A stretch of 64,000 nt of DNA from an uncultured bacterium (GCA_964654545.1 CAZZIU010000014.1:899-64898), one strand, 5' to 3'; shown: positions 14,590-49,825, numbered from the stretch's first letter. Notes: a model not told the origin generated them from the letters alone. Program-made: numbers and translations.

Positions 14590-14768
14590 TCGGTTATAAT
14601 GTCATTATCGTTAATCGGATTATTGTTTCGTATTCTAATCCTGACTAATTTGAAATCCTGTTCCGTTCAAATTGTATGCACATAGGATTCACAACATTAT
14701 TCGTCGAAAAAATAAGCAATTTAACGGTCAAATATTTTAATACAAAGCAACACAAAAGGGAGATCATT

Positions 14769-17696
14769 ATGTCTAAAATGATACTCAGTTTATTGGTACT
14801 ATCTTTTTCTTTCGGCCAGGTCACAAATGTTGACTGGGAAACGCAGGTTTATCCCATATTTAGTGATGCCGGCTGTCACAGTTGTCATGGTGCTTCCGGT
14901 GGGTTTACCATTGGTGGAACAGCCACTGAAGCCTATTCTAATATTGTAAACCAAATGAGTTCATGCAATTCGTTGGATTATATTGAACCATTCGATACAA
15001 GTGCATCCCATTTATATCTAAAAATTACTGGCAATCAGGACTGTGGAGCCAGAATGCCCTATAACAACCAAACCTATTTTGATAGCCATACGGATCAACT
15101 TGAATTAATTCAAGTGTGGATTCAGGAAGGTGCCCTTCCGGCAGCAGAAACGACTGATGGTGGTGTCTTTATTAGTGAATATATCGAAGGGTCATCCAAT
15201 AACAAAGCGCTGGAAATATTTAACGCAACTGGTGCTGATTTGGATTTGAGTACTTTGGAAATAAAATTATCACGAAACGGTTTCGGTTGGGGAATGTACG
15301 ATGCGACGACGGCGGAACCAGGCTTTATATATCCATTATCCGGGACATTGCAATCGGGGGATGTGTATGTACTGGCAGCCGATGCAGCTGGAACAGAAAT
15401 ACTTGCAGCAGCGGATGTTGCTCTGGCCTATCCAAGTGTTTGCCATTTTAACGGGGATGATGCCATTGGTCTATTCGAAAATGGTGTTTTAATTGATATC
15501 ATTGGTGTAGAACTCGAAGACCCCGGTTCAGCCTGGGACGTAGCTGGTGAAGGTGCCGCAACGGGAGAACATACTTTGGTTAGAAAAGCTTCTGTGAATG
15601 TTGGCACAACCGATTGGTCGGCTTCCGCCGGTACAAATGCGGATGATTCGGAATGGATAGTTTATGCACAGGATACGTTTGAATATCTTGGTTTCCATGT
15701 CTGGTCTGGTGGGGGCGGAGAAAATCTTGCTCCAGTGGCAAACGCAGGGTCAGATCAAACCGTTGGTTACAGTGAAGAAATAACACTCGATGGATCCTCC
15801 AGTCTTGATCCTGATGGGACCATAGATAGTTACCTTTGGAATCAGGTGAGCGGTACTTCCGTGACACTGAATAATGCACCTACGAGTATTGCGACCTTTA
15901 CATCTCCAGGTAGCGATGCCACTCTGGTATTTACATTACAGGTTACGGATGATCAGGGCGCCACGGATACAGACACCGTTACTGTAAATGTTTTAAATAT
16001 TTCACCTTCAGCTGTATTCTTCAGTGAATACATTGAAGGTTCAAGCTACAATAAAGCTGTTGAAATTTTCAACGGTACAGAAGGAACAATCGACCTGGCA
16101 GATTACCAATTCTGGCAAATTTCCGGAGGTGGAGAATGGCCGGAATATACGATTGATTTGACCGGATCACTGGCAGCAGGTGAAACCTATGTTATTTGTC
16201 ATCCGGATGCTGATGCTGCCATGCTGGCGGTTGCAGATTTGGTTATTACTCTGTATCACAACGGTGATGATGCACAGGGAATTGCCCAAAATTTTGCCGG
16301 TACGTGGATACTCATTGATGCCATCGGGGAAAGCGGTGATGCCCCAACCGGAGGTTGGGATGTTGCCGGTGTATCTCAAGGTACAAAGGATCACACCTTA
16401 GTGCGTCAATCAACCGTCTTAACAGGAAATACGGATTGGTCATCTTCCGCCGGTACCAATGCTTCAGATTCTGAATGGATCGTATACGATGTGAACACAT
16501 TTGATTATTTGGGAACCCATAATCAGAATGCGGATGCGCCAGTGATAGTAAACCTTTCGGCGACGCCGGACTTTGTAACTTCTACGACGGAGTTGGAGGT
16601 GTCGGCCGATATCACGCCAGTCGTAGGTACAGTTACGTCCGCCTCCATCTGGTACGGGACGGATGGTTCTCTTTTGAACGAAGCGGTAATGTGGCTCGAA
16701 TCCGGAACCACATGGATGGGATTAATACCACCCCAATCAGGGAATTCAGTTCTTCAGTTCCAAGTTAGTGGGACTGATGACGCAGGCAACACGGGTGAAT
16801 CCACCACACTGTCCGTATTGGTAGCAAGTTCTACACCAACATCCATCGCAGATATCCAGGCTGATGTCGCTTCTTATGTGGATCAAATTGTGACATTACA
16901 GGGTATTGTAACCATCGGTGTTGGCGTATTGGATGAAGATGACACCAAGGCCTATATCCAGGATGCATCCGGACGAGGATTGAATATTTTTGATTTTGAT
17001 ATATTACCAAATATGGATCGTGGCGATGAACTCCAAATGGTTGGATACATCGATCAGTATTTCACGACGACGGAAATTGTCGATTTTGTATATCAACGAC
17101 TATCCACTGGAAATACGATTCCCGCGGTTCAAGAGGTCACGGTTACACAGGCAAATTCATCAAACTACGAAGGTACATTCATTCAAATTAACGGTGAAGT
17201 AACCAATTCAGTGGTTGTGGGTGGTGGACAAAAAATAACGATTTCCGATGGTGGAGATTCCACTTTTGTGATGATCTGGCCTTCAACCGGAATTGACGTA
17301 ACGCCACTTACTGTGGGATCTACATGGTCGCTTGCCGGTGTAGGCAGTCAGTATTCCGACGAATACCAGCTTTTGGTGGGTTATTCTGATGATATAGTGA
17401 ATCTGGGGATTGATGATGACCTCATTATCCCAACGCAGTTTGGATTGCACAACGCCTATCCCAACCCCTTTAACCCGGCCACCACTTTGACATGGACCCT
17501 GGATCATTCCGGAGAACATGAATTGGCTGTGTACAATATTCTTGGACAGCAGGTGTCAATGCTGAGCAAAGGGTATAAAAATGCCGGTTCATATACATCA
17601 GTCTGGCAGGCGGGAAGCCTCAGTTCAGGAGTGTATTTTGTTCAATTAACGGCTGAAAACAAAAAGGATATTCACAAAATCCTGCTGGTTAAATAA
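14769..17696 (+). CDS. T9SS cargo: PSCyt1-like CXXCH domain + LTD + PKD-like + LTD + NucH-type beta-barrel unit + CTD
   Basis: Start at the internal ATG 14769 (AAGGGAG 7 nt upstream; signal ..SFSFG|Q). GCHSCHG lies at 14874-14888. Two ExeM-type LTDs (VFISEYIEGSSNNKALEIFN and VFFSEYIEGSSYNKAVEIFN). PKD-like block PVANAGSDQTV..LDGSSS.DPDG. The unit IADIQ...VTLQGIVT...YIQDASGRGLNIF..GDELQMVGYIDQY. CTD AYPNPFNPATT...GVYFVQL...ILLVK. Confidence 0.8.
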   Translation: MSKMILSLLVLSFSFGQVTNVDWETQVYPIFSDAGCHSCHGASGGFTIGGTATEAYSNIVNQMSSCNSLDYIEPFDTSASHLYLKITGNQDCGARMPYNNQTYFDSHTDQLELIQVWIQEGALPAAETTDGGVFISEYIEGSSNNKALEIFNATGADLDLSTLEIKLSRNGFGWGMYDATTAEPGFIYPLSGTLQSGDVYVLAADAAGTEILAAADVALAYPSVCHFNGDDAIGLFENGVLIDIIGVELEDPGSAWDVAGEGAATGEHTLVRKASVNVGTTDWSASAGTNADDSEWIVYAQDTFEYLGFHVWSGGGGENLAPVANAGSDQTVGYSEEITLDGSSSLDPDGTIDSYLWNQVSGTSVTLNNAPTSIATFTSPGSDATLVFTLQVTDDQGATDTDTVTVNVLNISPSAVFFSEYIEGSSYNKAVEIFNGTEGTIDLADYQFWQISGGGEWPEYTIDLTGSLAAGETYVICHPDADAAMLAVADLVITLYHNGDDAQGIAQNFAGTWILIDAIGESGDAPTGGWDVAGVSQGTKDHTLVRQSTVLTGNTDWSSSAGTNASDSEWIVYDVNTFDYLGTHNQNADAPVIVNLSATPDFVTSTTELEVSADITPVVGTVTSASIWYGTDGSLLNEAVMWLESGTTWMGLIPPQSGNSVLQFQVSGTDDAGNTGESTTLSVLVASSTPTSIADIQADVASYVDQIVTLQGIVTIGVGVLDEDDTKAYIQDASGRGLNIFDFDILPNMDRGDELQMVGYIDQYFTTTEIVDFVYQRLSTGNTIPAVQEVTVTQANSSNYEGTFIQINGEVTNSVVVGGGQKITISDGGDSTFVMIWPSTGIDVTPLTVGSTWSLAGVGSQYSDEYQLLVGYSDDIVNLGIDDDLIIPTQFGLHNAYPNPFNPATTLTWTLDHSGEHELAVYNILGQQVSMLSKGYKNAGSYTSVWQAGSLSSGVYFVQLTAENKKDIHKILLVK
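15165..15698 (+). repeat. intragenic duplicated module, copy 1 (ExeM-type lamin-tail domain, ~178 aa)
   Basis: Copy 1 VFISEYIEGSSNNKALEIFN...GTTDWSASAGTNADDSEWIVYAQDTFEYLGFH aligns end to end with copy 2. Confidence 0.8.
16014..16520 (+). repeat. intragenic duplicated module, copy 2 (ExeM-type lamin-tail domain, ~169 aa)
   Basis: Copy 2 VFFSEYIEGSSYNKAVEIFN...GNTDWSSSAGTNASDSEWIVYDVNTFDYLGTH is a diverged duplicate of 15165-15698. Confidence 0.8.
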
Positions 17697-17699
17697 ACT

Positions 17700-19703
17700 A
17701 TGAAAAAAATAGCAAGGTATGTATTGATTTTCCTCCCCATTCTATTGGCCGGGGAGGTCGATCATCTCATTTTCTCCGATCTGATTCTTCAACCTAGTGA
17801 TGGTGAATATGTAACCATTACAAATCCCACAAGCGGCGCAATTGACATGAGTGATTACTATATCACAGATGGAGCCGATCCCGGAAACGGTAAATACTAT
17901 TATAATCTCCCTGCCGATTCCAATTATTGGAGCGGATCAAGTTCAGATTTTATAGCACGCTTTCCGTCGGGACTCATGCTGGACGCAGGTGAAACGATAT
18001 TTCTCTCACTGAGAGATGGGGCAAGATTCCAGAGCGAATATGGAAGTCTTCCTGATCTTTCCCTCGATGATGATTTATTAGATGCTGTTACGGGATCGCC
18101 ATCAAAAGGATCTGTTGTTGCAGCAAAGCTGAATAATGCAACTGAATCACTCGTTTTATTTTATTGGGATGGTACAATGCCTACAGTGCAGGATGTGGAT
18201 TATCTGGTATGGGGCGACAACACCTACGCCATAGATAAGTCGGGTATCAGCGGATATGTCAATGAGACACCCCTGGCATCACAGGACGTTTTGCCGGTAC
18301 ACGATGCATCAGAAAAACTAAGTAGAATTAGTGACGAAGGAATCGAGACAACATCAGGTGGAAATGGGATCACAGGGCATGATGAAACCAGTGAACCCTT
18401 TGGTTCGACCTGGACAATTGTAAGTATCACTTCATCAAAACCTGAATTGTCTAATCTGTCTATTGTTCCCGAAGTGCCCACAACTAGTGATCAACTAACA
18501 TTTACCATTGATGTTACCGATGATGACGGGATAGCCAGTGTTGAATTGGTTCGCACGTTTAATTCAATACCAACCGTTACCGAAATGAGCCTTGCTACTG
18601 CTCCACAATATTCGCTCACCATCGATTCACTGGGCGCAGTGGGGCAATTGAGTTATTACGTACGAGCAACCGATAATGTTGGCTTTAAAGATTCCACGAA
18701 TATTAATGCAATAAATATTGTGACACCTCCAGAACCGCCGGAAGATCTATCTATCAAGGATATTCTGGATAGTCTGTCTAATTATGTGGGAGAAACAGTG
18801 ACGATTGATGGGGTAATAGCTGTCCCGGGAGGATTGTTACGAACAACCTTCACTGAAGCCTTTTTGCAGGATAACTCTGAAAGAGGCCTTATTTTATATG
18901 CATCCACGTTGGATACAACCTCATTCAAGCGTGGGGATTCTGTATTGGTAACCGGCGAAGTGGATGAATATAATGGCAAACCGGAATTGATTTATTCTGA
19001 TGTAACAGTATTAAAATCAAATGCAAAAATACCAGTGATTGACTTGACAATTGAGCAATTTAATAGTTTGCAATACGATTACGCATTTGTAGAAATTTGG
19101 GGGAAAATCACCAGTAGGTCCGAACCAACCCCAACCAATACCGGAACAAACGTCTCCATCCAGGATGAGACCGGTGAAACAGCGACTGTACGTATCTGGA
19201 ATTCCACCCGTGTTCTTTACAATGAAACTGGTGATTCAATTCTCCACGTTGAGTTGGATACCTTGCTCCAGGTAGGCAAAGAAATTGTTGTCCGTGGGAT
19301 CGGAGGTCAATATTCCGGAATTGGTCAAATTCAACCGGCTTACGCGAGTGATATTTTTGAAAAACTCGAGGGGGTTGAAGGAGATTATTCCACATCTTTG
19401 ACAATTGCACCGTATCCATTTGTTCCCCAATTTGGTGAAGTAATACAATACACATACAGTTTTCCTGCCAATGCACGAATCAAGCTGCGATTATTTGATA
19501 CGGCAGGAAGGTTAATAAGTACGATATATGATGAGTATCGCACCATATCATTCTACAAAGAAGATGTTTGGAATGGGCGAGATGATCTTAATCAATTACT
19601 TCCACCCGGTGTTTATATAATGCATCTGGAAGTGACCGATACCCAAACCGGAAAATTAACCACGGACATGGCGCCGGTTGTGGTTGGAGCGTACAAGCCA
19701 TGA
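17700..19703 (+). CDS. secreted LTD + Ig-like + NucH-type beta-barrel unit protein with a FlgD-Ig-like C-terminal domain
   Basis: LTD: LIFSDLILQPSDGEYVTITNPT..IDMSDYYITDG. Barrel unit: IKDIL...GETVTIDGVIAV...FLQDNSERGLILYA..GDSVLVTGEVDEYNGKPEL. C-terminus: YPFVPQFGEVIQYTY...LRLFDTAGRL...WNGRDD..PPGVYIMHL. Confidence 0.7.
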   Translation: MKKIARYVLIFLPILLAGEVDHLIFSDLILQPSDGEYVTITNPTSGAIDMSDYYITDGADPGNGKYYYNLPADSNYWSGSSSDFIARFPSGLMLDAGETIFLSLRDGARFQSEYGSLPDLSLDDDLLDAVTGSPSKGSVVAAKLNNATESLVLFYWDGTMPTVQDVDYLVWGDNTYAIDKSGISGYVNETPLASQDVLPVHDASEKLSRISDEGIETTSGGNGITGHDETSEPFGSTWTIVSITSSKPELSNLSIVPEVPTTSDQLTFTIDVTDDDGIASVELVRTFNSIPTVTEMSLATAPQYSLTIDSLGAVGQLSYYVRATDNVGFKDSTNINAINIVTPPEPPEDLSIKDILDSLSNYVGETVTIDGVIAVPGGLLRTTFTEAFLQDNSERGLILYASTLDTTSFKRGDSVLVTGEVDEYNGKPELIYSDVTVLKSNAKIPVIDLTIEQFNSLQYDYAFVEIWGKITSRSEPTPTNTGTNVSIQDETGETATVRIWNSTRVLYNETGDSILHVELDTLLQVGKEIVVRGIGGQYSGIGQIQPAYASDIFEKLEGVEGDYSTSLTIAPYPFVPQFGEVIQYTYSFPANARIKLRLFDTAGRLISTIYDEYRTISFYKEDVWNGRDDLNQLLPPGVYIMHLEVTDTQTGKLTTDMAPVVVGAYKP

Positions 19704-20587
19704 GAAACAACATAATTCTTACACTGCTTGTATTTACTTCTATGATATATGCACAGGTGACATCGGATACCCAGTATCAAGGTGCACGTCAGTTAGCGTT
19801 AGCCGGAAGTGATATTGCCTGGGAGCAGGATGCCTTCGCCGTATTTCATAATCCGGCTGGAGCGGCCTGGCAAAACAATTTGCGGGTCGGACTAGGATAT
19901 GAACATCTCTTCGGACTTTCCTATTTGCCACATATCACCACGGCTGTATCGGTACCTGTCGGGAAATACGGGACTTCCAGTCTTTCTTTTGAGCAATTGG
20001 CTGTTTCCTATCAATCCAATGATTTATCAACAGAAAATTCCCTCGGAGTATCACAGTCATTTTTCCTCATGAAAGATCGCATGACCAGCCTGGCCGTGGG
20101 AATTTCATTCAATTATTATTCAGTAAACTATGGTAAATCGGCTGGTATCTCCGGGGATGGCTCTGATGGAATAAATTTAGGTTCTACAAGTACATACGGA
20201 TTGTCTTTGGGATTCCAGGGAAGCTTGCATGAAACGCATTGGGTAGGCGCCTGGGTAAAGAATATAAACTCACCTGGATTGGATAATGCGGATGTTGTGT
20301 CCTATCTACCCCGATCCATTGCTCTGGGATATTCCTATGCTCCCTATCATTTGGTAAGAACACATTTTTCCATGACCAAATCCGTCGGGAGAATTGGTCA
20401 GTATCATGCCGGGTTGGAGTATGAACTGACTCCTTATTTTACTGTTTTATCCGGTGTGCATAGTAACCCAAATAGATTTGGCGCTGGATTAAAACTTCAC
20501 GTGAAATCCATGAATATTTATTACGCAATATTGACCCATCCCGTATTGCCGCTGGCTCAACAATTCACTTTTGGAATGGCATTTTGA
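19700..20587 (+). CDS. PorV/PorQ-like outer-membrane beta-barrel protein
   Basis: Signal ..SMIYA|Q. GARQLALAGSDIAWEQDAFAVFHNPAGAAW signature. Ends FTFGMAF. ATGA overlap with the upstream cargo gene. Confidence 0.6.
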   Translation: MRNNIILTLLVFTSMIYAQVTSDTQYQGARQLALAGSDIAWEQDAFAVFHNPAGAAWQNNLRVGLGYEHLFGLSYLPHITTAVSVPVGKYGTSSLSFEQLAVSYQSNDLSTENSLGVSQSFFLMKDRMTSLAVGISFNYYSVNYGKSAGISGDGSDGINLGSTSTYGLSLGFQGSLHETHWVGAWVKNINSPGLDNADVVSYLPRSIALGYSYAPYHLVRTHFSMTKSVGRIGQYHAGLEYELTPYFTVLSGVHSNPNRFGAGLKLHVKSMNIYYAILTHPVLPLAQQFTFGMAF

Positions 20588-23037
20588 GGAATACCCTTCT
20601 ATTGCTTTTGTGTGGATTTTTAATTGCACAAACACCAAAAGTACCGTTGAATTCCACTACCTTGGAAGAATTGCAGGAATTACCTATTCCGGGCGATATT
20701 GCTGAAGCTGTATATGATTATGTGCTTTACCAGGGGCCGGTCACGAATATTTATTCTTTAGGTTCAATTCCTGGTGTGACGGCTGAATATCTTGAAATAT
20801 TAAAAACCCATGTGACCACATCGGAGAAAAAAGTAAAGGGCGTTAATCGGTTGATGGAATTTTCGCGAAGCGTGGAAAATTTTACAGGAACGGAAGGAGT
20901 AAACGAAGGATTGGTAGAAATGTGGTTAGATCGATTGGCAGAGCCCATGAATATCAATGATGCCACCTATGATGATTTAATTGCATTGCAAAATGTAAGT
21001 CCCGTTGATGCGGTTGCCGTACTCAAAAGGTTGGATGAAGGTGAATTGAGTTACCCGCGGGCACTTCGTACTGCATTGGGTTTATCCTATTACGGTTACC
21101 GCAATATGCGTGACTTTTTCGTCTATGGAAGTGATACAACCGCTAAATCCAATCATTTTTGGTACAATACCACATACAAAACAATCCCATCGACCAATTC
21201 ATTTGACAGTGAAGTATCGTCTGGCGATCCCCTTTCCTATCACCCCGCTGATGTACAACATAAAGTATTATTTTCTTATGGTGAGCACTGGAAATTTGGG
21301 ATGATTTATTATCGCGGAATGGGTGAAAGTACACTGTCAGAATCGGATCAAAACGGCCTTTTCCCTTCGATAAAAATATCAGCATCATTAAATGATGTTG
21401 ATGCTGGTGTGGTCAATTTTGATCGAATAATATTAGGTAGTTTCAGTGTCACAATGGGGCAGGGGGTCGTATTTGAAAGTACGGACTTTTTTGCTCCCCG
21501 GCGGTCAGGTTATGGTTGGAGCCGTCGTGTTGTTGGTGCATTTCCTGATGCTTCTAGATCACATGAGTATGCTTTAAACGGGGTTGCCACGCAAACAAGA
21601 ATTGGTCCGTTTCAGGCAATTGGATTCATATCTAAAACACCAAGAGATGCGATTATTAATCCGATTGATAAATCCATATCTACCTTGATATCTCTCTACC
21701 CTCGTATAGATGTTGGCTATTTTGGTGACCTGCCATTTCCAATGTTAAATACCGTGGAAGAAATGACCTATGGAACGCATATTCGCTATTTTCACCAGAG
21801 GGATTTGATTTTGGGATTTTCAGCGTATGAAAGTTTATATGATCGTGTGCTGGATCCCCAAATTCGAAAAACTATTATTCATCCGGACAATCAATGGAGA
21901 TACCTAACCTCTATTGGAAATACGGCTGATACTGAGATTGATGCAATGTATTTATCAGAAGGGTCATCTCCCCTGTGGGATAAAGCAAAATCCTTTCGGA
22001 GAGTGGTGGGTATGGACTTTACCAAAGTAATATCGAATATTGCATTCCAGGGTGAAATTGGTTTATTAGATAAAGATGGTGATATGACCACTTTTTCCAA
22101 GGATCCGCAAGCAAAAGTACTTAGCGGATATATGCAATTTGATAATTTAAATATTTTGGTATTGTACCGTGATTATGACCTTGGATTCGATAATCCTTAC
22201 CAACGTTCCTTTTCTAATTATCAGCGCTACAAAGGATCCATTTTTGAAGATACGTTTTATTTAACCGACCCTATTTATGGATTTTTATATACGGGCATAG
22301 CCCAACCACAGGCGGAAAGAGGTATATATTTTTCAAGCCGATACCAATTTCATCAGCAATTTGTAGTGACCACAGATTTTGATACCTGGACGCGAGTTGC
22401 AGATAACGCACGGTATTACCGGACGGTCATTAGACTTCAGTATAGACCAACCTTTAATTATAGAATTAATATTCGACAAAAATGGCAGGAAAGAGGAGCC
22501 TTTGACAGTTTCGATCCGTCCGCATTTTATTCCCGGGAAACAATTCTCCGATTTCAGATGCGATTATCCAATTATGACCAGCTGGAATTAATTTACGGTC
22601 GTTCCGCCGTCGATTTTACTGCCCGCAGAAGATTATCTGCTGATTACGAAAGTGGCGGTCAGAATCTGGCCTTAGTAGGCAATAAAAATTCGCTTGGGCA
22701 ATCTGTAGGATTTCGCGTAATACATCATTTCCAAAACAATTCAAGAATCTCTTTCCATACGCTGTTTTATCAAGGATTCGTCTGGAGTTTTGAAGAGACA
22801 GATTTTCGCGTATTCGATAGCCTATCCGATGCGGTCCGTTATTATGTTGCCTACAGTTCCCGCTTAGGACAAAACTGGATGCTGCGACTTAAATGGACCA
22901 ATGATATTCAATTGCCAATTACAAACTATTATTATGCCGATAGTGAAAGTGCTTCGATGTATGACCGTAGCCTACAAGACATTTATCCAATCACCCAAAA
23001 CTCTGATGTTCGGGTACAAATTGATTACACTTTTTAG
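20584..23037 (+). CDS. ComEA-like tandem helix-hairpin-helix N-terminal region fused to a large (~600 aa) predicted outer-membrane beta-barrel
   Basis: TTG start overlapping the upstream stop (TTGA). Signal ..GFLIA|Q. HhH-like modules: LNSTTLEELQELPIPGDIAEAVYDYVLYQGPV..LGSIPGVTAEYLEIL and MNINDATYDDLIALQNVSPVDAVAVLKRL. The remainder is rich in aromatics and alternating residues and ends VRVQIDYTF. Confidence 0.6.
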   Translation: MRNTLLLLLCGFLIAQTPKVPLNSTTLEELQELPIPGDIAEAVYDYVLYQGPVTNIYSLGSIPGVTAEYLEILKTHVTTSEKKVKGVNRLMEFSRSVENFTGTEGVNEGLVEMWLDRLAEPMNINDATYDDLIALQNVSPVDAVAVLKRLDEGELSYPRALRTALGLSYYGYRNMRDFFVYGSDTTAKSNHFWYNTTYKTIPSTNSFDSEVSSGDPLSYHPADVQHKVLFSYGEHWKFGMIYYRGMGESTLSESDQNGLFPSIKISASLNDVDAGVVNFDRIILGSFSVTMGQGVVFESTDFFAPRRSGYGWSRRVVGAFPDASRSHEYALNGVATQTRIGPFQAIGFISKTPRDAIINPIDKSISTLISLYPRIDVGYFGDLPFPMLNTVEEMTYGTHIRYFHQRDLILGFSAYESLYDRVLDPQIRKTIIHPDNQWRYLTSIGNTADTEIDAMYLSEGSSPLWDKAKSFRRVVGMDFTKVISNIAFQGEIGLLDKDGDMTTFSKDPQAKVLSGYMQFDNLNILVLYRDYDLGFDNPYQRSFSNYQRYKGSIFEDTFYLTDPIYGFLYTGIAQPQAERGIYFSSRYQFHQQFVVTTDFDTWTRVADNARYYRTVIRLQYRPTFNYRINIRQKWQERGAFDSFDPSAFYSRETILRFQMRLSNYDQLELIYGRSAVDFTARRRLSADYESGGQNLALVGNKNSLGQSVGFRVIHHFQNNSRISFHTLFYQGFVWSFEETDFRVFDSLSDAVRYYVAYSSRLGQNWMLRLKWTNDIQLPITNYYYADSESASMYDRSLQDIYPITQNSDVRVQIDYTF

Positions 23038-23044: not shown

Positions 23045-24388
23045 ATGAAATACACTTATATTTCAAATCTTTTATTACTAATTACGGGTGCATCCACCAT
23101 ATTTGCACAATCCTATTTCCCATTATACCCAAACGAATTAAGTGGTTATAGTGCTCAATTAATAGGCAGTGCCGGGACAGGTATTGCATCCAATCCAGGG
23201 GTTTCGTGTATCTGGGGAAATCCGGCCATGCTTGGCTCCATAAACGGCAGATTCAATTCAAGTTTTACTTTCGGAGTCCAAAGAAGTGAAGAGTTTCGAT
23301 CAGTAAATATGATCGACTCGTTTGATGATGTAGTTACAAAAAGTGCCTATGCCAGTAATCGCAATTTCTATACCCTAACTCATGGAGGAATGGTAACCTC
23401 ATTACCGTCAGTGTTCGATAAAATTAATGTTGGGATTGGAGTGATGCCCTATTGGGATTACCGCTACAATTATTCTGAAGAAGTTCGAGGAAATTTAAGT
23501 TCCGGTAATTACAACCGTGACCCTCTCGTAGGTTATCATACCATTGAGCGTTCCGGTAAAATCTACGCCACTGGAATTGGTACAGCGCTAAATATTGTAC
23601 CTGCATTGGATTTAGGTTTATCCGTTTCCTGGTTGCAATCATTCAACCTTATGAGTAGACAGGGTATTATATCATCTGATTCGAATATAGATGATGCATT
23701 AGCAGGTGAACCCTATTCTGTCGGCGGTGATATAACATTAAGCAAATCGGCTCTGTTGGTGAATGCAGGTGTTCTACTGCGATTATCGGAAATGGATCAC
23801 ATTGGTTTTATGTATCGTTCGGGAGTATCCCTTACACTGAATGGATTACCATGGTATCCATCCCTGGCACCGGAATCTCAGCTGCCAACCACGTACGTAA
23901 ATATGGATACAACCTTTGCCCATACGATCACAATGCCGCCAGAGATTGGAATCGGTGTTCAACACAAAGTAGGGCACAGTATTTATCCCACAACTATAAA
24001 TGTGGAAGTGCGTTATAGGGATTGGACGCTTTATGAATATGCTTTTAATCCCATGATTGATTCATTAAGCACCCTGGATTACCCATTTGAATCAACGTTT
24101 GATGTGCGTTCAAGCGTGGAATACCTTGTGAGAAATAGATATCCTGTGCGATTCGGATTTATTTACAAAGGTTCTCCTATGGGCTCAGATTTTGAAACCA
24201 CGACCATCACACTTGGAACGTCACACGTATTTGGTCCGATGACGCTGGACGTGGGTGGATGGTTTAATTACATGAGTTATATCTATGATGACATTTTTAT
24301 TGCAAGTGGTTATACGGGAGAACCTGCTAAAGAGACGGTCCAGGAATGGAACAGTCAATTGGTAATGACTTTAACTTATTCATTTTAA
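23045..24388 (+). CDS. FadL/TodX-like outer-membrane channel protein
   Basis: Internal ATG 23045 gives the signal MKYTYISNLLLLITGASTIFA|Q. SGYSAQLIGSAGTGIASNPGVSCIWGNPAML resembles the FadL N-terminal signature (SS.G.G.A....NPA). At 447 aa it is FadL-sized. Ends MTLTYSF. Confidence 0.6.
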   Translation: MKYTYISNLLLLITGASTIFAQSYFPLYPNELSGYSAQLIGSAGTGIASNPGVSCIWGNPAMLGSINGRFNSSFTFGVQRSEEFRSVNMIDSFDDVVTKSAYASNRNFYTLTHGGMVTSLPSVFDKINVGIGVMPYWDYRYNYSEEVRGNLSSGNYNRDPLVGYHTIERSGKIYATGIGTALNIVPALDLGLSVSWLQSFNLMSRQGIISSDSNIDDALAGEPYSVGGDITLSKSALLVNAGVLLRLSEMDHIGFMYRSGVSLTLNGLPWYPSLAPESQLPTTYVNMDTTFAHTITMPPEIGIGVQHKVGHSIYPTTINVEVRYRDWTLYEYAFNPMIDSLSTLDYPFESTFDVRSSVEYLVRNRYPVRFGFIYKGSPMGSDFETTTITLGTSHVFGPMTLDVGGWFNYMSYIYDDIFIASGYTGEPAKETVQEWNSQLVMTLTYSF

Positions 24389-26304
24389 TGAGAAGAATTC
24401 TTTCAGTCATTTTATCCTTTTCTGCGATTCTGATTGCAGGTGAAGGTGATATTTTGGAAGTAAATCTAATTTTCACCAACGAAATCCAGGGTTCCATTCA
24501 TCAGGTTCCGGCCCGGTTCATGAACCCGGAATATCCACCACTGTTAACCGGCGGCGCTGGTGCCTATACCTATGTGAACTCGGTTCGTGACGGCATTGAT
24601 AGTCCAGTTCTCCTGCTGGACGGCGGAGATTTTTTTCAAGGAACACCGTTAGGGACTCATGATGCAGGAAAATCGATCATCACATGGATGAATTGGATGC
24701 AATATGATGCATTGGTTCCCGGCGTGTTTGATTTTATTCTGGGTAGAGATGCACTGGCACACACTGCTTCCACTGCACACTTCCCATTTCTTGCCGCCAA
24801 TATCATTGAAAAGGAAACGGGAAAAAACCCGGACTTTGTAAAACCATATATCCTTAAAGAAATAGACGGTGTAACGTTTGGCATCATTGGTTTGGCTTCG
24901 CCAATGGTGAAAGATCAAATTGTTGCTGAGAAGTATGAAGGATTGATCTTTCAATCCCCACTGGAAGTTCTTGATAGATGGGTAAGCGAGGTGAAAACAC
25001 AGGGTGCAGATATTGTCATCCTACTGTCCAGCCTGGGATTACCCTATGAAAGGGAATCCGTATTTGATGAGTTTACCGATCAGATAGACACACAATCTTC
25101 TGAAATGCAAAATGAAACATTGGACGCAATCGTTTTGGCGCATTATGCAAAAGGTGTGGATATCATTGTGACCGGTGGAGTTTCCAAAGGATATGACACA
25201 CCTTGGATTGATCCTGAAACACATGTGCTGGTAGTGCAGAATTACGGCAACATTACTGGAATTGGTCATTTGATTTTACAGATCGACAGAAATGTAAAAA
25301 CTCTAACAGGATATCAATACCCGACCAAAAGAGGAATGATGATTAGCTTGCTGGAGGATGATGTTGCCGCCGACCCGGTGATAGCAGATTCAATCTCAAA
25401 CTGGGTTGAGAATTCAACACCTCCTCTCCACTTCTTAGATGATACTATAAAGGATGCTGTATTTATAGAACAGAACACAACATTATTCACAATGGATAAT
25501 TTTAACATTCCAGCAATAGGCACAGCCGATAGAATGGATATTATGACTTGGAATCTGGAATGGTTCCCGGCTGCGGGGGATACGACGATTGAGTATGTCA
25601 GTGAAGTCCTGCACGATCTAAATCTAGATATTGTTGCTCTTCAGGAAATAAAAAATATGGGGTGGTTTGGAAAATTGATGGAGCAAATTCCTGAATACGG
25701 GTACATTTTAACAAAACAATCCTCCTTTTTGAATCAAGCCATTATCTATCGAAAAGAAAATCTGGCTGTCCTCGATTATTATGAGCCATTTGCAATGGAT
25801 GATTATTTCTTTGCAGGACGACCACCCCTGCTGGTGAATTTTGCATATAATGACGGCTATACTGTAAAAGTCTTTACCGTAGTAAATCTCCACCTGAAGT
25901 GTTGCGGTGATGGTTTATATCGCAGGCAACGTTCTTTAGAGTGGCTGCACGATTATCTCTTGGAATATATGGCTGTAGGGCAGGATAGAATTGTGGTTTT
26001 AGGGGATTTGAATGACCAATTGGACGATGAGCCGGTATTTAATTCATTTTATCCGTTTCTTGATGATCCTGCAAATTTTTATTTTGTAACAGAATCCATT
26101 CATGATGATGCTTCACAGGCATCCTATCCCAGCTGGCCCAGTTTTCTTGATCACATTATAATTGGCAAAGGATTTTTCAATGATCACCAGCAAAGTGGAT
26201 CAATCCAGACGGTTCAGGTAGACGACTATGTAGGTAGTTGGGAATTATATGAGTCTACCATGTCCGACCATCTACCTGTTTTGTGGTCCTTTAAATTCAA
26301 ATAA
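24388..26304 (+). CDS. fusion protein: degenerate 5'-nucleotidase/metallophosphatase-like N-half + EEP nuclease/phosphatase C-half
   Basis: Internal ATG 24388 (TAATG overlap). The N-half aligns to UshA-type motifs, but the catalytic residues are replaced (TNEIQGS for TNDxHG, PGVFDF for GNHEFD, GGVSKG for GGHSH). GGDFFQGT is retained. The C-half EEP is intact: MTWNLEWF, ALQEIKN, VLGDLND, SDHLPVLWSF. Confidence 0.75.
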   Translation: MRRILSVILSFSAILIAGEGDILEVNLIFTNEIQGSIHQVPARFMNPEYPPLLTGGAGAYTYVNSVRDGIDSPVLLLDGGDFFQGTPLGTHDAGKSIITWMNWMQYDALVPGVFDFILGRDALAHTASTAHFPFLAANIIEKETGKNPDFVKPYILKEIDGVTFGIIGLASPMVKDQIVAEKYEGLIFQSPLEVLDRWVSEVKTQGADIVILLSSLGLPYERESVFDEFTDQIDTQSSEMQNETLDAIVLAHYAKGVDIIVTGGVSKGYDTPWIDPETHVLVVQNYGNITGIGHLILQIDRNVKTLTGYQYPTKRGMMISLLEDDVAADPVIADSISNWVENSTPPLHFLDDTIKDAVFIEQNTTLFTMDNFNIPAIGTADRMDIMTWNLEWFPAAGDTTIEYVSEVLHDLNLDIVALQEIKNMGWFGKLMEQIPEYGYILTKQSSFLNQAIIYRKENLAVLDYYEPFAMDDYFFAGRPPLLVNFAYNDGYTVKVFTVVNLHLKCCGDGLYRRQRSLEWLHDYLLEYMAVGQDRIVVLGDLNDQLDDEPVFNSFYPFLDDPANFYFVTESIHDDASQASYPSWPSFLDHIIIGKGFFNDHQQSGSIQTVQVDDYVGSWELYESTMSDHLPVLWSFKFK

Positions 26305-26308: not shown

Positions 26309-27241
26309 ATGCTAAGAATACTTAGCTGGATATTGGCAATAGGTCTTATTCTGCTGATAGCCAGTTGTGCCAAACCCACTGAACCTCAGGACTTGCCAGA
26401 TGATAATGGAACGTCATCGCTTCCATATCCTTCATTACATATTGGAACGGATTCTACCTTTGAAATTGGTACCTGGAATTTGCTGAATTATCCCCACGCA
26501 TCCACATCAAACGTATATATCACTGATATATTAAAGTCGCTGGATGTGGATATGGTTTGTTTCCAGGAAATTAGTAATTCTTTGCAATTTGCCAACATGG
26601 TAAACCTGCTTAATGATATTGATTCGGTAAATACATGGGTTGGGCATGTGGGAAATTCTACCAATTATGACGGACAGGATTTGGCTGTGATTTATAAGGC
26701 CGATATAATTTCACAAATAGAATTCACGGATATTTTTACGAATGAAAGTGGGGCATTTCCTCGTTCTCCATTGAAAATTAAATTTACACTGAACGATGAG
26801 ACATTTATTGTCATTGATAATCATTTAAAAGCCTATGATTCTCAAGAGGATAGAGATAGAAGAAAGAATGCTTGCTCATTGCTGGATACATATATTGATT
26901 CGACCTATCCAAATGACAATGTGATTATCCTTGGTGACATGAACGATGAGGTTACGGATGGCTCTAGTGAGAATGTATTTTTAGCATTTATTGATTCGCC
27001 AGGTGACTATAAAATCGCTGATATGATCATAGCAAGGGGATCTTCACAAAATTGGTCCTACCCAACCTGGCCAAGCCATATTGATCATATTATTATTACC
27101 AATGAATTGTATGATGAGTTTAGCGGAAGCGGTGCAGCAATCAACACAATCCGGATTGATGATGCATTGGACGGTGGTTGGTATGAATATGAAACCAACA
27201 TTTCGGATCACAGACCGGTGGTTTGGTCATTTCCCTTGTAA
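26309..27241 (+). CDS. EEP-family nuclease/phosphatase lipoprotein
   Basis: Internal ATG 26309 gives the lipoprotein signal MLRILSWILAIGLILLIAS|C. EEP blocks: IGTWNLLNY, VCFQEISN, IILGDMNDE, SDHRPVVWSF. Confidence 0.8.
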   Translation: MLRILSWILAIGLILLIASCAKPTEPQDLPDDNGTSSLPYPSLHIGTDSTFEIGTWNLLNYPHASTSNVYITDILKSLDVDMVCFQEISNSLQFANMVNLLNDIDSVNTWVGHVGNSTNYDGQDLAVIYKADIISQIEFTDIFTNESGAFPRSPLKIKFTLNDETFIVIDNHLKAYDSQEDRDRRKNACSLLDTYIDSTYPNDNVIILGDMNDEVTDGSSENVFLAFIDSPGDYKIADMIIARGSSQNWSYPTWPSHIDHIIITNELYDEFSGSGAAINTIRIDDALDGGWYEYETNISDHRPVVWSFPL

Positions 27242-32824: not shown

Positions 32825-32835
32825 TTGAAAACAAT

Positions 32836-32867
32836 GCAACGGGTGTTCTTTGATGAACACCCGTTGC
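32836..32867 (+). terminator. 13-bp perfect stem-loop at the operon boundary (candidate terminator, no U-tract)
   Basis: GCAACGGGTGTTC-tttgat-GAACACCCGTTGC begins 12 nt after the stop of the 29597-32824 gene. The following sequence (actcataag) lacks a T-run. Confidence 0.4.
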
Positions 32868-32885
32868 ACTCATAAGTCACACACA

Positions 32886-42277: not shown

Positions 42278-42811
42278 ATGACGAAATTAATCGAGAAACG
42301 ATTAAAATCGTCTAAAATCTATTCCGGACGGTTGCTCCACGTCTATAAAGATGATGTGGAGTTGCCTTCCGGACAAACAACCGATCGGGAATATATCAAA
42401 CATCCCGGTGCCGTGGTAATTATACCAATATTACCAAATGGTGAAATTCTATTGATTAAACAATTTCGGTATCCAATGGGGATGACGATGATTGAATTAC
42501 CGGCCGGAAAACTTGACCCAGGTGAGGATCACAGGCAATCTGCTGAGCGTGAACTGGAAGAAGAAACCGGTTACCGCGCTGCTACATTGATGGAGGTTAC
42601 GGAAATTCATCCCTGCATAGGATATAGCGATGAAAAAATGTGGTTGTATTATGCTGAGGGCCTTACAAAGACATCCACCAATCTTGATAATGACGAATTT
42701 ATTGACCTCCTGCCAGTTCCATTGAGTAAAGCCATCAATATGGTGTGGAACGGTGAGATTACTGATGTAAAAACCATCATCGGCGTTTTATGGGCAGATC
42801 GCCTTCGTTAG
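42278..42811 (+). CDS. NUDIX hydrolase, ADP-ribose pyrophosphatase-like
   Basis: Nudix box GKLDPGEDHRQSAERELEEETGY. The overall layout (..REYIKHPGAVVIIP..) is typical of NudF-type enzymes. Confidence 0.8.
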   Translation: MTKLIEKRLKSSKIYSGRLLHVYKDDVELPSGQTTDREYIKHPGAVVIIPILPNGEILLIKQFRYPMGMTMIELPAGKLDPGEDHRQSAERELEEETGYRAATLMEVTEIHPCIGYSDEKMWLYYAEGLTKTSTNLDNDEFIDLLPVPLSKAINMVWNGEITDVKTIIGVLWADRLR

Positions 42812-45426: not shown

Positions 45427-45433
45427 ATCAACC

Positions 45434-46936: not shown

Positions 46937-46938
46937 TT

Positions 46939-49704: not shown

Positions 49705-49775
49705 GGCTTATCGTGAAATTCTGATGTATGACCTTTGATTAGTCATTAAGTTGTCATAAAGAATAAATTTACAGG

Positions 49776-49817: not shown

Positions 49818-49825
49818 TGATATAT

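What the first reader, a model, noticed from the sequence alone, without database searches (positions are those of the whole stretch)
20584..23037. ComEA-like helix-hairpin-helix modules fused to a ~600-aa outer-membrane beta-barrel
**What the sequence shows.** After a signal peptide, the first ~170 aa contain two modules with ComEA-type spacing:
- LNSTTLEELQELPIPGDIAEAVYDYVLYQGPV..LGSIPGVTAEYLEIL
- MNINDATYDDLIALQNVSPVDAVAVLKRL

Their G-h-G hairpins are partly degenerate (IPGD, IPGV, VSPV). The remaining ~620 aa look like a large barrel and end in the outer-membrane-protein-type terminus QIDYTF. The gene starts on TTG inside the stop of a PorV-like gene. It sits between LTD cargo genes and a FadL-like channel in the nuclease locus.

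**Why it is interesting.** ComEA is a free periplasmic DNA receptor in known competence systems. A covalent HhH-barrel fusion would be a one-polypeptide candidate for a DNA or oligonucleotide-specific outer-membrane conduit or dock.
Basis: partly seen in the sequence, partly recalled or inferred. Interest (0 to 1): 0.8.

Follow-up and report, generated by a model that had tools for sequence, protein, structure and literature searches.

The report
HhH-domain outer-membrane barrel in DNA-scavenging operon
This gene encodes an undescribed outer-membrane protein, two ComEA-like helix-hairpin-helix domains joined to a 24-stranded barrel, that sits in a nuclease/nucleotidase operon conserved across marine Marinimicrobia, which makes it a good but unproven candidate for taking up extracellular DNA fragments as food.

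Summary

**What the ORF encodes.** ORF 20584-23037 (+, TTG start inside the upstream TGA) encodes five parts:
- an SPI signal peptide;
- two complete, mutually homologous ComEA-type HHH_3 domains (residues 17-82 and 118-182), joined by a conserved acidic linker;
- a barrel (residues 191-817) ending in an OMP beta-signal (VRVQIDYTF).

AlphaFold2 (pLDDT 88.7, pTM 0.85) and indel logic give a canonical 24-stranded outer-membrane barrel. Both termini are periplasmic, so the HhH domains hang at the periplasmic mouth. No Pfam, NCBIfam or PDB family matches the barrel.

**Distribution and context.** Relatives occur in 235 species genomes. Most are Marinimicrobia; others are Krumholzibacteria, an Elusimicrobiota MAG and Ca. 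Caldipriscus. The gene order LTD/OB protein, PorV-like barrel, this gene, FadL-like barrel, 5'-nucleotidase(-EEP nuclease) is kept in about 95-100% of loci, down to 25% identity.

**Caveat.** The lysines and GIG hairpins that ComEA needs to bind DNA are not conserved. One such position is a 96%-conserved Asp.

**Best reading (about 0.45).** It is an outer-membrane conduit or dock for DNA fragments in a PUL-like DNA-utilisation system. Rival readings are an export or assembly pore, or a structural hub.

It is a new variant of a known kind. Interest 0.65.

The parts
20584..20628 (+). TTG start (overlaps the upstream TGA by 4 nt) and SPI-type signal peptide, residues 1-15 (LRNTLLLLLCGFLIA|QT). 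The Cys is not conserved and there is no lipobox.
   Evidence: read from the sequence
20632..20829 (+). HhH domain 1 (residues 17-82), ComEA-type HHH_3 with two degenerate hairpins (IPGD, IPGV).
   Evidence: Pfam HHH_3 residues 18-77; PDB profile hits to EEPD1 and ComEA; helices at pLDDT 87-95
20830..20934 (+). Inter-domain linker (residues 83-117), helical and acidic. Its C-terminal part (EGxxExxxDxWxDxL) is conserved across the family.
   Evidence: mean net charge -3.8
20935..21129 (+). HhH domain 2 (residues 118-182), homologous to domain 1 and the best-conserved part of the N-terminal region. Motifs are NVSPvDA and GLSYYGYRNMR. It is tethered to strand 1 by only 8 residues.
   Evidence: hhalign prob 98.5%, E 1.9e-15; conservation; pLDDT 93-97
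21154..23034 (+). 24-stranded outer-membrane beta-barrel (residues 191-817). Periplasmic turns are 2-5 residues. Extracellular loops are long and partly highly conserved.
   Evidence: AF2 DSSP; amphipathic alternation in every strand; Foldseek finds only OM barrels; residues 252-261 are deleted in some homologues, so they form a loop hairpin and not a wall strand
21457..21573 (+). Loop L3 (residues 292-330), conserved and Arg/aromatic-rich (GQGvvFEStDFFaPRRSGYGWSRRVvG). Candidate in-folding constriction.
22177..22314 (+). Loop L7 (residues 532-577), conserved (DNPYQRSFSNYQRYKGsIFEDtFYL). Candidate in-folding constriction.
   Evidence: this was the peptide pattern used to find 235 genomes
23008..23037 (+). 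C-terminal beta-signal VRVQIDYTF plus the stop codon.
   Evidence: family consensus RxQxDYxF
17700..19703 (+). Conserved partner: LTD + OB-fold protein with SPI signal and a PorU-like, probably uncleaved, C-terminal domain. Putative surface DNA binder.
   Evidence: two genes upstream in 52/53 loci
19700..20587 (+). Conserved partner: PorV/PorQ-family (FadL-fold) barrel, 295 aa.
   Evidence: NCBIfam PorV_fam E 1.3e-8, below its cut-off; directly upstream in 66/69 loci and in distant relatives
23045..24388 (+). Conserved partner: FadL/Toluene_X-type barrel. The likely true start is MKYTYISN at 23045, 7 nt after the target's stop.
   Evidence: Pfam Toluene_X E 2.1e-9; N-terminus; directly downstream in 69/69 loci
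24388..26304 (+). Conserved partner: UshA-like 5'-nucleotidase/metallophosphatase fused to an EEP nuclease domain. It has an SPI signal, no T9SS CTD and no lipobox, so it is inferred to be periplasmic.
   Evidence: next gene in 61/62 loci
26309..27241 (+). EEP-family nuclease, lipoprotein (lipobox LIAS|C).
12862..17696 (+). Two T9SS cargo proteins: EEP nuclease+LTD+CTD (12862-14589) and LTD x2+PKD+ExeM-like+CTD (14676-17696).
   Evidence: the LTD-PKD-CTD gene is present in most loci
29597..37468 (+). DUF5689+OB+ExeM/NucH-like T9SS cargo (29597-32824), an unknown lipoprotein-like ORF (32850-34676), and a CarboxypepD_reg+Plug TonB-dependent receptor (34673-37468). The pair resembles DdbD/DdbC. 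It is linked here but is not part of the invariant core.
   Evidence: PMC12478041, PMC8459023

Best explanation
The protein is the central outer-membrane component of a conserved extracellular-DNA scavenging operon, a PUL-like 'DNA-utilisation locus' of Marinimicrobia and some other phyla.

**Proposed mechanism.**
1. Surface proteins bind extracellular DNA. These are LTD/OB-fold and DUF5689 proteins exported by the T9SS, some probably held on the PorV-like and FadL-like barrels.
2. CTD-bearing EEP/ExeM-like nucleases cut the DNA.
3. The fragments or oligonucleotides cross the outer membrane through, or are docked at, the 24-stranded barrel. The barrel wall and its conserved loops are rich in invariant Arg/Lys/Tyr.
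4. The two tethered HhH domains sit at the periplasmic mouth. They receive the incoming nucleic acid or hand it to the periplasmic 5'-nucleotidase-EEP nuclease.
5. Binding plus hydrolysis, rather than TonB or a pilus, makes uptake directional.

**Shown.**
- the domain architecture;
- the barrel fold and strand count;
- the signal peptide and beta-signal;
- family-wide conservation;
- the conserved operon and the enzyme families in it.

**Inferred.**
- periplasmic location of the HhH domains, from canonical OMP topology;
- periplasmic location of the nucleotidase-nuclease, from SPI without CTD or lipobox;
- everything about DNA passage and binding.
For: **Architecture.**
- There are two homologous HHH_3 domains.
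- The AF2 model has pLDDT 88.7 and pTM 0.85, with 24 long amphipathic strands, 2-5-residue turns on one side and long loops on the other.
- Foldseek finds only OM barrels. The best TM-scores are to the FimD and PapC usher chains and, equally by query-normalised score, to the MtrB chain of the Mtr complex.

**Barrel lining.**
- Lumen-facing positions carry about 29 K/R against about 19 D/E, with several nearly invariant: R529 100%, R613 97%, K264 95%, R586 90%.
- An Arg/Lys run lies on strands 14-18.
- Conserved loops read PRRSGYGWSRR and YQRSFSNYQRYKG.

**Context.**
- In 80 Marinimicrobia loci the PorV-like gene is directly upstream in 66/69, the FadL-like gene directly downstream in 69/69, 5'NT-EEP next in 61/62, and LTD-OB two upstream in 52/53.
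- The same order survives at about 25% identity in an Elusimicrobiota MAG and in a TPR-bearing variant.
- Genes overlap or abut by 1-7 nt, which suggests one operon.
- The neighbouring enzyme with an EEP nuclease domain has an SPI signal and no CTD. That implies oligo- or polynucleotide reaches the periplasm.

**Precedents.**
- The Bacteroides ddbABCDEF locus has the same logic: surface nucleases, an OM transporter and an SPI periplasmic nuclease (PMC12478041).
- Riemerella transformation needs a DUF5689 protein, an OM barrel and an HhH protein (PMC8459023).
- ComEA acts as a periplasmic ratchet (PMC3879209).
- ComEA-type HhH domains are fused to nuclease domains elsewhere: to an EEP domain in EEPD1, the top PDB hit, and to a DNase I-like nuclease in Thioalkalivibrio (PMC4777378).
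Against: - The DNA-contact signature of ComEA is missing. The K63-equivalent is Q/L (K in only 15%) in domain 1 and Asp in 96% in domain 2. The HhH2 lysine position is Glu (51%) or Tyr/Trp (98% aromatic, with Phe).
- GIG hairpins are mostly x-h-S/T. In ComEA, K63E and G60E abolish function.
- Domain 1 and the linker are net acidic.
- Nothing shows that the lumen is open. About 170 residues of conserved loops, or HhH-2 itself, could plug it.
- A separate DdbC-like TonB-dependent receptor with a DUF5689 partner lies in the same window and could be the real importer.
- In distant relatives the downstream enzyme is only a 5'-nucleotidase, so the substrate could be mononucleotides.
- Two remote homologues (Ca. 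Caldipriscus L081, and L085) have no nuclease context.
- There is no experimental evidence of any kind.
Confidence: 0.45

Rival explanations
1. Export or assembly pore. The barrel is a dedicated outer-membrane translocon or assembly factor, analogous to ushers, TpsB or Slam. It would move or anchor the operon's own proteins to the cell surface: the LTD-OB protein, the EEP lipoprotein or the nucleotidase. The degenerate HhH domains would serve as the periplasmic substrate-docking domain rather than as DNA binders.
For: - The best structural matches include the 24-strand ushers FimD and PapC.
- Periplasmic N-terminal docking domains are the rule for OM exporters.
- One relative (P0233) carries about 430 aa of TPR repeats in front of the HhH domains, with a weak TPR_Slam hit.
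- The ComEA DNA-contact residues are lost.
- 8 of 60 members also hit the HhH-like T2SSK_1st domain, which is not known to bind DNA.
- The module is found in an Elusimicrobiota MAG, where a T9SS may be absent.
Against: - In the window the surface proteins carry T9SS C-terminal domains, and SprA is encoded 14 kb upstream, so a secretion route already exists.
- No Usher, POTRA or DUF560 profile hit was found.
- TM-scores to ushers are low, 0.32-0.47.
- It is not explained why a nucleic-acid-binding fold would be retained in every member.
Confidence: 0.2
2. Structural hub. The barrel is neither channel nor exporter. It is the scaffold of a three-barrel surface complex (PorV-like + this protein + FadL-like) that positions T9SS-delivered DNA-binding proteins and nucleases. 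The HhH domains would tie the complex to a periplasmic partner, the nucleotidase-nuclease. The actual import would go through the DdbC-like TonB-dependent receptor or through porins.
For: - Three barrels are invariably adjacent.
- LTD-OB and ORF 27465-29579 have PorU-like and PorZ-like CTDs. PorU and PorZ are the T9SS proteins I recall staying bound to the FadL-fold barrels PorV and PorQ (for the hits; the rest is my knowledge of the P. gingivalis attachment complex, not checked here).
- A DdbC/DdbD-like pair is present in the window, and sits directly upstream of the core in L042, L044 and L060.
Against: - A 626-residue barrel with near-invariant charged lumen-facing residues and loops is more constrained than a scaffold needs to be.
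- The TonB-dependent receptor is not consistently linked, whereas this barrel is.
Confidence: 0.15
3. Small-solute channel. The barrel is a specific porin for nucleotides, nucleosides or phosphate released by the surface nucleases. The HhH domains are vestigial or regulatory.
For: - The lumen lining is Arg/Lys-rich, reminiscent of anion-selective channels.
- In distant relatives the downstream enzyme is a plain 5'-nucleotidase followed by an ABC importer.
Against: - 24 strands is far larger than known nucleoside or phosphate channels, which have 12-16 strands (my own knowledge).
- The HhH domains are under strong purifying selection. Domain 2 is the best-conserved part of the N-terminal region.
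- In Marinimicrobia an EEP nuclease domain sits in the presumably periplasmic neighbour.
Confidence: 0.1

Closest known systems
ComEA (periplasmic DNA receptor of competence systems; Pfam HHH_3, TIGR00426/TIGR01259; PDB 8DSS, 8DFK, 2DUY)
   Same: It has the same atypical (HhH)2 fold family by profile. It is inferred to be periplasmic and is linked to DNA-processing genes.
   Different: - There are two tandem domains instead of one.
- They are covalently fused to an outer-membrane barrel rather than soluble or inner-membrane anchored.
- The GIG hairpins and DNA-contact lysines are not conserved.
- The curated ComEA models are far below threshold.
- The context is catabolic (nucleases, nucleotidase) rather than ComEC/DprA.
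ddbABCDEF DNA-utilisation locus of Bacteroides thetaiotaomicron and the related Riemerella anatipestifer transformation genes (PMC12478041, PMC8459023)
   Same: - The logic is PUL-like: surface nucleases and DNA-binding proteins, an outer-membrane transporter, and an SPI periplasmic nuclease.
- The window also contains a DUF5689 protein and a CarboxypepD_reg+Plug receptor, like DdbD/DdbC.
- Riemerella additionally needs an HhH protein.
   Different: - The invariant outer-membrane component here is not a TonB-dependent transporter. It is an HhH-barrel with no plug or TonB box, flanked by PorV-like and FadL-like barrels.
- Surface proteins are T9SS cargo (CTD) instead of lipoproteins.
- The HhH domains are part of the barrel polypeptide.
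Chaperone-usher pore proteins FimD and PapC (24-stranded barrels)
   Same: The barrel is of similar size. These chains give the best, or joint best, TM-scores (TMq 0.32, TMt up to 0.47). They also have an N-terminal periplasmic domain in front of the barrel.
   Different: - There is no sequence or profile relationship.
- There is no mid-barrel plug domain and there are no C-terminal domains.
- The TM-scores are low enough to indicate only a generic large-barrel resemblance.
ExeM/NucH extracellular nucleases (LTD + OB + EEP)
   Same: The operon's partner proteins carry the same domains, which points to extracellular DNA degradation.
   Different: This concerns the neighbours, not the target. 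Here the ExeM domains are split over several T9SS cargo proteins.
EEPD1 (human; two HhH domains + EEP nuclease; PDB 9YI2)
   Same: It is the best solved-structure match to the N-terminal region (E 2.3e-8). It also has tandem ComEA-type HhH domains functionally coupled to an EEP nuclease.
   Different: In EEPD1 the HhH pair is fused to the nuclease itself. Here it is fused to a membrane barrel, and the EEP domains are on neighbouring genes.

Membership tests
ComEA / HHH_3 DNA-binding domain | Profile match to the (HhH)2 ComEA-type domain | tested here: met
   Target: Pfam HHH_3 E 6.9e-6, 26.5 bits against GA 27, marginally below. Family: 59/60 members hit, best E 5.6e-22, distant members 36-73 bits. 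PDB profile hits to ComEA 8dss and 8dfk and to EEPD1. The second domain is homologous to the first (hhalign 98.5%).
ComEA / HHH_3 DNA-binding domain | Reaches the curated ComEA family models (TIGR01259, TIGR00426) | tested here: not met
   17.5 bits against a cut-off of 152.35, and 17 bits against 53.1.
ComEA / HHH_3 DNA-binding domain | G-h-G hairpins and the lysine pair that contacts DNA (V. cholerae G60, K62, K63; PMC3879209) | tested here: not met
   Equivalent positions are Q/L (K in 15%), E 51%, D 96% and Y/W/F 98%. Hairpins are mostly x-h-S/T.
ComEA / HHH_3 DNA-binding domain | Binds DNA without sequence specificity | not testable with these tools
   Needs EMSA or anisotropy with residues 17-190.
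ComEA / HHH_3 DNA-binding domain | Free or inner-membrane-anchored periplasmic protein | tested here: not met
   The domains are covalently joined, through an 8-residue linker, to strand 1 of an outer-membrane barrel. Periplasmic location is inferred from topology.
BAM-dependent outer-membrane beta-barrel protein | N-terminal signal peptide and C-terminal beta-signal ending in an aromatic residue | tested here: met
   The signal peptide is LLLLLCGFLIA|QT and the terminus is VRVQIDYTF. The family consensus is RxQxDYxF.
BAM-dependent outer-membrane beta-barrel protein | Closed antiparallel barrel with an even strand number, short periplasmic turns and long external loops | tested here: met
   AF2 gives pLDDT 88.7 and pTM 0.85. 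There are 24 strands once residues 252-261, deleted in several homologues, are read as a loop hairpin. Turns are 2-5 aa. Every strand is amphipathic. Foldseek finds only OM barrels. Coordinates could not be inspected, so closure is taken from the tool's summary and from parity.
TonB-dependent transporter | Plug domain, TonB box and 22-strand TonB_dep_Rec barrel | tested here: not met
   No Plug or TonB_dep_Rec hit at E up to 10. There are 24 strands. TM-scores to TBDTs are 0.2-0.33.
Chaperone-usher pore | Usher profile, plug domain inserted in the barrel, C-terminal domains | tested here: not met
   No Usher Pfam hit. No mid-barrel domain appears in the DSSP. TM-scores are at most 0.47.
Bacteroidota-type DNA-utilisation locus (ddb) | Secreted or surface nucleases plus a periplasmic SPI nuclease in one locus | tested here: met
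   There are EEP/ExeM-like proteins with T9SS CTDs, an EEP lipoprotein, and an SPI 5'NT-EEP.
Bacteroidota-type DNA-utilisation locus (ddb) | DdbC-type TonB-dependent transporter with a DUF5689 (DdbD) partner as the anchor of the locus | tested here: inconclusive
   A DUF5689 protein (29597-32824) and a CarboxypepD_reg+Plug receptor (34673-37468) are in the window. They are adjacent to the core in only some loci. No direct sequence comparison with DdbC/DdbD was possible.
Bacteroidota-type DNA-utilisation locus (ddb) | Locus required for depletion of exogenous DNA | not testable with these tools
   Needs genetics or heterologous expression.

The most novel reading that the evidence does not exclude
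The HhH-barrel is a new type of outer-membrane nucleic-acid translocon that is independent of TonB, pili and secretins. A single polypeptide combines a wide, Arg-lined 24-strand pore with its own tethered periplasmic ratchet or receiver: tandem divergent HhH domains that use aromatic and Arg residues instead of the ComEA lysines. With its obligate PorV-like and FadL-like partner barrels and T9SS-anchored LTD/OB proteins it would form a surface 'DNA utilisome'. That complex would let the abundant deep-ocean phylum Marinimicrobia (SAR406) and relatives in other phyla feed on dissolved DNA.
Probability: 0.3. Interest if true: 0.85.

Novelty: new variant of a known kind. Interest (0 to 1): 0.65.

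Why it matters
- Dissolved and particulate extracellular DNA is a major phosphorus and nitrogen pool in the ocean. Marinimicrobia (SAR406) are among the most abundant uncultured deep-water bacteria.
- How DNA or oligonucleotides cross the outer membrane is known for only two routes: a secretin with a type IV pilus and ComEA, and, since 2021-2025, a TonB-dependent DdbC-type transporter in Bacteroidota.
- A phylum-wide, tightly conserved operon built around a ComEA-like domain fused to an otherwise unclassified 24-strand barrel offers a concrete third candidate.
- It gives a defined set of six genes to express heterologously and a marker gene for DNA-foraging potential in metagenomes.
- It corrects current automatic annotations ('ComEA family DNA-binding protein', 'DNA uptake protein ComE-like'). 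These ignore three quarters of the protein and overstate membership in ComEA.

Tried and rejected

**First AF2 run.** The run with 20 close homologues was poor (pLDDT 62). It was replaced by a 95-sequence alignment.

**Genome scan with the wide alignment.** A2 had no stretch conserved enough to search with. A1 was used instead.

**Placement of the HhH domains relative to the barrel.**
- Model coordinates are not exposed to the sandbox.
- A reduced-alphabet DCA on 203 sequences (Neff 72) was dominated by indel artefacts. Only 27 of 64 strand-strand top pairs fell in adjacent strands, so it failed its positive control and was discarded.

**N-terminal region alone.** A search of the 5.8-billion-protein set with this region returned only fragments of the same family. 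It found no stand-alone tandem-HhH relatives.

**Partner proteins.** PDB sequence searches with the PorV-like, FadL-like and LTD-OB partners found nothing.

**Rejected ideas.**
- Lipoprotein: the Cys at residue 10 is not conserved and has no lipobox.
- 25-strand barrel with an external N-terminus: rejected on parity and because residues 252-261 are deleted in homologues.
- Net charge of the HhH domains as an argument against DNA binding: by my own hand count from the alignments (no tool run), the aligned ComEA and EEPD1 HhH stretches are themselves slightly acidic overall, so only position-specific residues were used.

Full report
**1. The observation.**

The ORF at 20584-23037 (+) is real and 817 codons long. 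Its TTG start shares four bases (TTGA) with the stop of the upstream gene. Homologues align from the first residues (M-K/R-x), which favours this start. The public annotation of the identical protein (P0001, 811 aa) uses a TTG six codons downstream.

The N-terminus is a type I signal peptide (LLLLLCGFLIA|QT). Its Cys is not conserved and is not in a lipobox.

**2. The HhH region.**

For this one sequence Pfam HHH_3 scores E 6.9e-6, 26.5 bits against a gathering score of 27. The curated ComEA NCBIfam models are only grazed (17.5 bits against a cut-off of 152; 17 against 53). At family level the signal is unambiguous:
- 59 of 60 diverse homologues hit HHH_3, best E 5.6e-22. Distant members score 36-73 bits.
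- A family profile finds the HhH domains of human EEPD1 (9yi2, E 2.3e-8) and of ComEA from Geobacillus and Bacillus (8dss 1.5e-4; 8dfk 4e-4). It finds nothing for the C-terminal 630 residues.

A profile-profile comparison of residues 16-82 with 112-182 gives probability 98.5%, E 1.9e-15 over 62 columns.

The N-terminal architecture is therefore:
- signal peptide;
- HHH_3 domain 1 (residues 17-82);
- a helical, acidic linker, conserved in its C-terminal part (residues 83-117);
- HHH_3 domain 2 (residues 118-182).

**3. The barrel.**

AlphaFold2 on 20 close homologues was mediocre (pLDDT 62). With 95 sequences reaching down to 21% identity it gave pLDDT 88.7 and pTM 0.85.

DSSP shows helices up to residue 176 and then only beta strands to residue 816. 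The raw strand count is 25. However:
- residues 252-261 appear as two 4-residue strands (a hairpin);
- they lie in an indel-rich stretch;
- that stretch is simply deleted in P0072, P0008, P0013 and P0014.

So residues 252-261 cannot be a wall strand. With them read as part of loop L2, the barrel has 24 strands (beta-1 at 191-199 to beta-24 at 804-816). Eleven turns of 2-5 residues lie on one side. On the other side are loops of up to 50 residues:
- L1 (200-222) and L2 (245-263), variable;
- L3 (292-330), L5 (420-469) and L7 (532-577), strongly conserved.

Every strand alternates hydrophobic and polar residues across the family. The protein ends in a classical beta-signal, VRVQIDYTF.

This is canonical OMP topology, so both termini should be periplasmic. 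HhH-2 is separated from beta-1 by only eight residues, which puts it at the periplasmic mouth of the barrel or possibly inside it.

Foldseek against the PDB returns 260 hits at E<=1e-3, and the listed top 50 are all outer-membrane barrels. None is specific. The best TM-scores go to the FimD and PapC usher chains and, equally by query-normalised score, to the MtrB chain of the Mtr complex (TMq 0.32; TMt 0.47 for a FimD translocation domain). TonB-dependent transporters score lower, and there is no Plug or TonB_dep_Rec hit. The barrel is an unclassified OMP family.

The predicted lumen-facing positions hold about 29 Lys/Arg against about 19 Asp/Glu. Some are nearly invariant (R529, R613, K264, R586, E393, E578, D600). 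A run of basic residues lies on strands 14-18. Loops L3 and L7 carry PRRSGYGWSRR and YQRSFSNYQRYKG.

**4. Distribution and context.**

About 283 clusters at 50% identity exist in a 1.8-billion-protein set, mostly 750-890 aa with the same architecture. A scan of one genome per species found relatives in 235 genomes. The best 80 are almost all Marinimicrobia (Neomarinimicrobiota, Fidelibacterota) MAGs. More distant members come from Krumholzibacteria, an Elusimicrobiota MAG and Ca. Caldipriscus. [quoted passage not shown]

Comparing all ORFs of the 80 loci with the window's proteins shows an almost invariant order on one strand:
- LTD/PKD T9SS cargo;
- LTD+OB protein (two genes upstream in 52/53 loci with enough flank);
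- PorV-like barrel (directly upstream in 66/69);
- the HhH-barrel;
- FadL-like barrel (directly downstream in 69/69);
- 5'-nucleotidase-EEP nuclease (next in 61/62).

The same order survives at about 25% identity in the Elusimicrobiota contigs and in a variant with an extra N-terminal TPR region. In both the downstream enzyme is a plain 5'-nucleotidase, and in the Elusimicrobiota contig an ABC importer follows it. Two remote members lack the nuclease context.

In the window the genes overlap or abut by 1-7 nt. The real starts are FadL-like at 23045, 5'NT-EEP at 24388 and the EEP lipoprotein at 26309.

Localisation signals differ in an informative way:
- the nuclease and LTD/OB/DUF5689 proteins carry T9SS C-terminal domains, so they are surface or secreted;
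- one EEP nuclease is a lipoprotein (LIAS|C);
- the 5'-nucleotidase-EEP fusion has an SPI signal, no CTD and no lipobox, so it is inferred to be periplasmic.

Further upstream is the T9SS translocon SprA (491-6781). Downstream are a DUF5689+OB T9SS cargo protein and a CarboxypepD_reg+Plug TonB-dependent receptor.

**5. What is known.**

Two papers frame this locus.
- In Riemerella anatipestifer, natural transformation requires a DUF5689 protein, an adjacent CarboxypepD_reg outer-membrane barrel and an HhH-domain protein, besides ComEC, ComF and DprA (PMC8459023).
- In Bacteroides thetaiotaomicron, the ddbABCDEF 'DNA-utilisation locus' is needed to deplete exogenous DNA and has PUL-like logic. 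It encodes surface nucleases, the TonB-dependent transporter DdbC with its DUF5689 partner DdbD, and an SPI periplasmic nuclease (PMC12478041).

The window therefore contains a ddbCD-like pair. The invariant core across Marinimicrobia, however, is built around the HhH-barrel and not around the TonB receptor.

My searches of the held paper library turned up no paper describing an HhH-barrel fusion or this operon.

**6. Does it work like ComEA?**

ComEA binds DNA through the HhH1 GIG hairpin and the lysine pair K62/K63. K63E and G60E abolish DNA binding and uptake (PMC3879209).

I mapped these positions through the HMMER and hhalign alignments onto 95 family members.

| ComEA position | Domain 1 | Domain 2 |
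|---|---|---|
| K63-equivalent (HhH1) | Q/L (K in 15%) | Asp, 96% |
| Lysine after the HhH2 hairpin | Glu, 51% | Tyr/Trp/Phe, 98% aromatic |

The hairpins are mostly x-h-S/T instead of G-h-G. Domain 1 and the linker are net acidic.

Domain 2 keeps a G-L-S hairpin followed by a strongly conserved aromatic/basic motif (GLSYYGYRNMR). That motif could contact bases or phosphates in a non-canonical way.

Fold homology is therefore shown. ComEA-like DNA binding is not, and membership in the ComEA family proper fails on tested features.

Two points keep a nucleic-acid role plausible:
- the operon context;
- ComEA-type HhH domains are fused to nuclease domains elsewhere, to an EEP domain in EEPD1 (the top PDB hit) and to a DNase I-like nuclease in Thioalkalivibrio (PMC4777378).

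**7. Most likely mechanism and rivals.**

Best-supported model (confidence about 0.45):
- surface LTD/OB/DUF5689 proteins capture DNA;
- T9SS-delivered nucleases fragment it;
- fragments pass or dock at the Arg-lined 24-strand barrel;
- the tethered HhH domains at the periplasmic mouth receive them or couple them to the periplasmic nucleotidase-nuclease;
- binding and hydrolysis provide directionality without TonB or a pilus.

An EEP nuclease domain in a presumably periplasmic protein means that oligomeric DNA must cross the outer membrane somewhere. This barrel is the only large pore always present in the operon.

Rivals:
- A usher-, Slam- or TpsB-like export or assembly pore for the operon's surface proteins (0.2). 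It is favoured by the usher-like size, the TPR-bearing variant and the loss of the DNA-contact residues. It is disfavoured by the T9SS signals on the cargo.
- A structural hub of a three-barrel complex, with import through the DdbC-like receptor (0.15).
- A nucleotide- or phosphate-specific channel with vestigial HhH domains (0.1).

Which is right depends on data I could not obtain: the model coordinates (pore radius, position of HhH-2), DNA-binding assays and channel recordings.

**8. Verdict.**

The protein is a new, widely distributed OMP family whose N-terminal domains are ComEA-like in fold but not in DNA-contact residues. It is locked into a conserved DNA-scavenging operon. I file it as a new variant of a known kind (outer-membrane DNA-utilisation systems), with a component that has no described counterpart. 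Interest 0.65.

Noticed in passing
window 29597-37468: A DUF5689+OB-fold+ExeM/NucH-like T9SS cargo protein, an unknown ORF (32850-34676, N-terminus LLCIVSC looks like a lipobox) and a CarboxypepD_reg+Plug TonB-dependent receptor. The DUF5689 protein with a receptor nearby is the combination described for DdbD/DdbC in Bacteroides and RA0C_RS04920/04915 in Riemerella. In L042, L044 and L060 the receptor block sits directly upstream of the core operon instead.
   Followed up: partly
window 491-12786: A T9SS cluster upstream: SprA translocon (2096 aa), M28 peptidase, a CTD-ending protein (8548-10176), a UPF0164/PorV-like barrel (10149-11099), an unknown barrel-like ORF (11096-11962) and a divergent polysaccharide deacetylase. 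Several of these are syntenic with the nuclease operon in other Marinimicrobia loci.
   Followed up: partly
window 17700-19703 and 27465-29579: The C-terminal domains of the LTD-OB protein and of ORF 27465-29579 match the CTDs of PorU and PorZ best (NCBIfam E 8e-6 and 1e-6), not generic cargo CTDs. This hints that they stay bound to the PorV-like and FadL-like barrels of the operon, as I recall PorU and PorZ do on PorV and PorQ.
   Followed up: no
window 24388-26304: An unusual fusion of an UshA/SoxB-like metallophosphatase (5'-nucleotidase) N-terminal half with a C-terminal EEP nuclease domain, carrying an SPI signal. In distant relatives (L082, L086) the gene at this position is a plain Metallophos+5_nucleotid_C enzyme without the EEP domain. 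In many Marinimicrobia loci two 5NT-EEP-like ORFs follow each other.
   Followed up: partly
L086 10001-13756 (P0233, 1251 aa): A family member with about 430 extra N-terminal residues of TPR repeats (weak TPR_Slam hit) in front of the two HhH domains and the barrel. It is still flanked by PorV-like, FadL-like, 5'-nucleotidase and LTD genes.
   Followed up: partly
L082 6598-9717: In the Elusimicrobiota relative the core is followed by an ABC importer (two BPD_transp_1 permeases plus an SBP_bac_1 binding protein). This may be the inner-membrane step for the products.
   Followed up: no
window 40952-41719: A small OMP_b-brl-like protein (255 aa) is unusually well conserved (58-66% identity in the closer loci, 34-43% in the more distant ones) and stays linked downstream of the nuclease operon in many Marinimicrobia loci, together with ORFs 39927-40880, 42278-42811 and 42878-43825.
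   Followed up: no
window 37468-39920: A second PorV/FadL-like barrel (37468-38466) directly follows the TonB-dependent receptor, and an NHL-repeat protein follows that. The trio travels together in L042 and L044.
   Followed up: no
window 44548-64000: The rest of the window is housekeeping or unrelated: DUF4097 and HEAT-repeat proteins on the minus strand, RNase E/G (51523-53112, -), B12-dependent methionine synthase MetH (53485-57084), and citrate lyase alpha subunit CitF (61106-62662).
   Followed up: no
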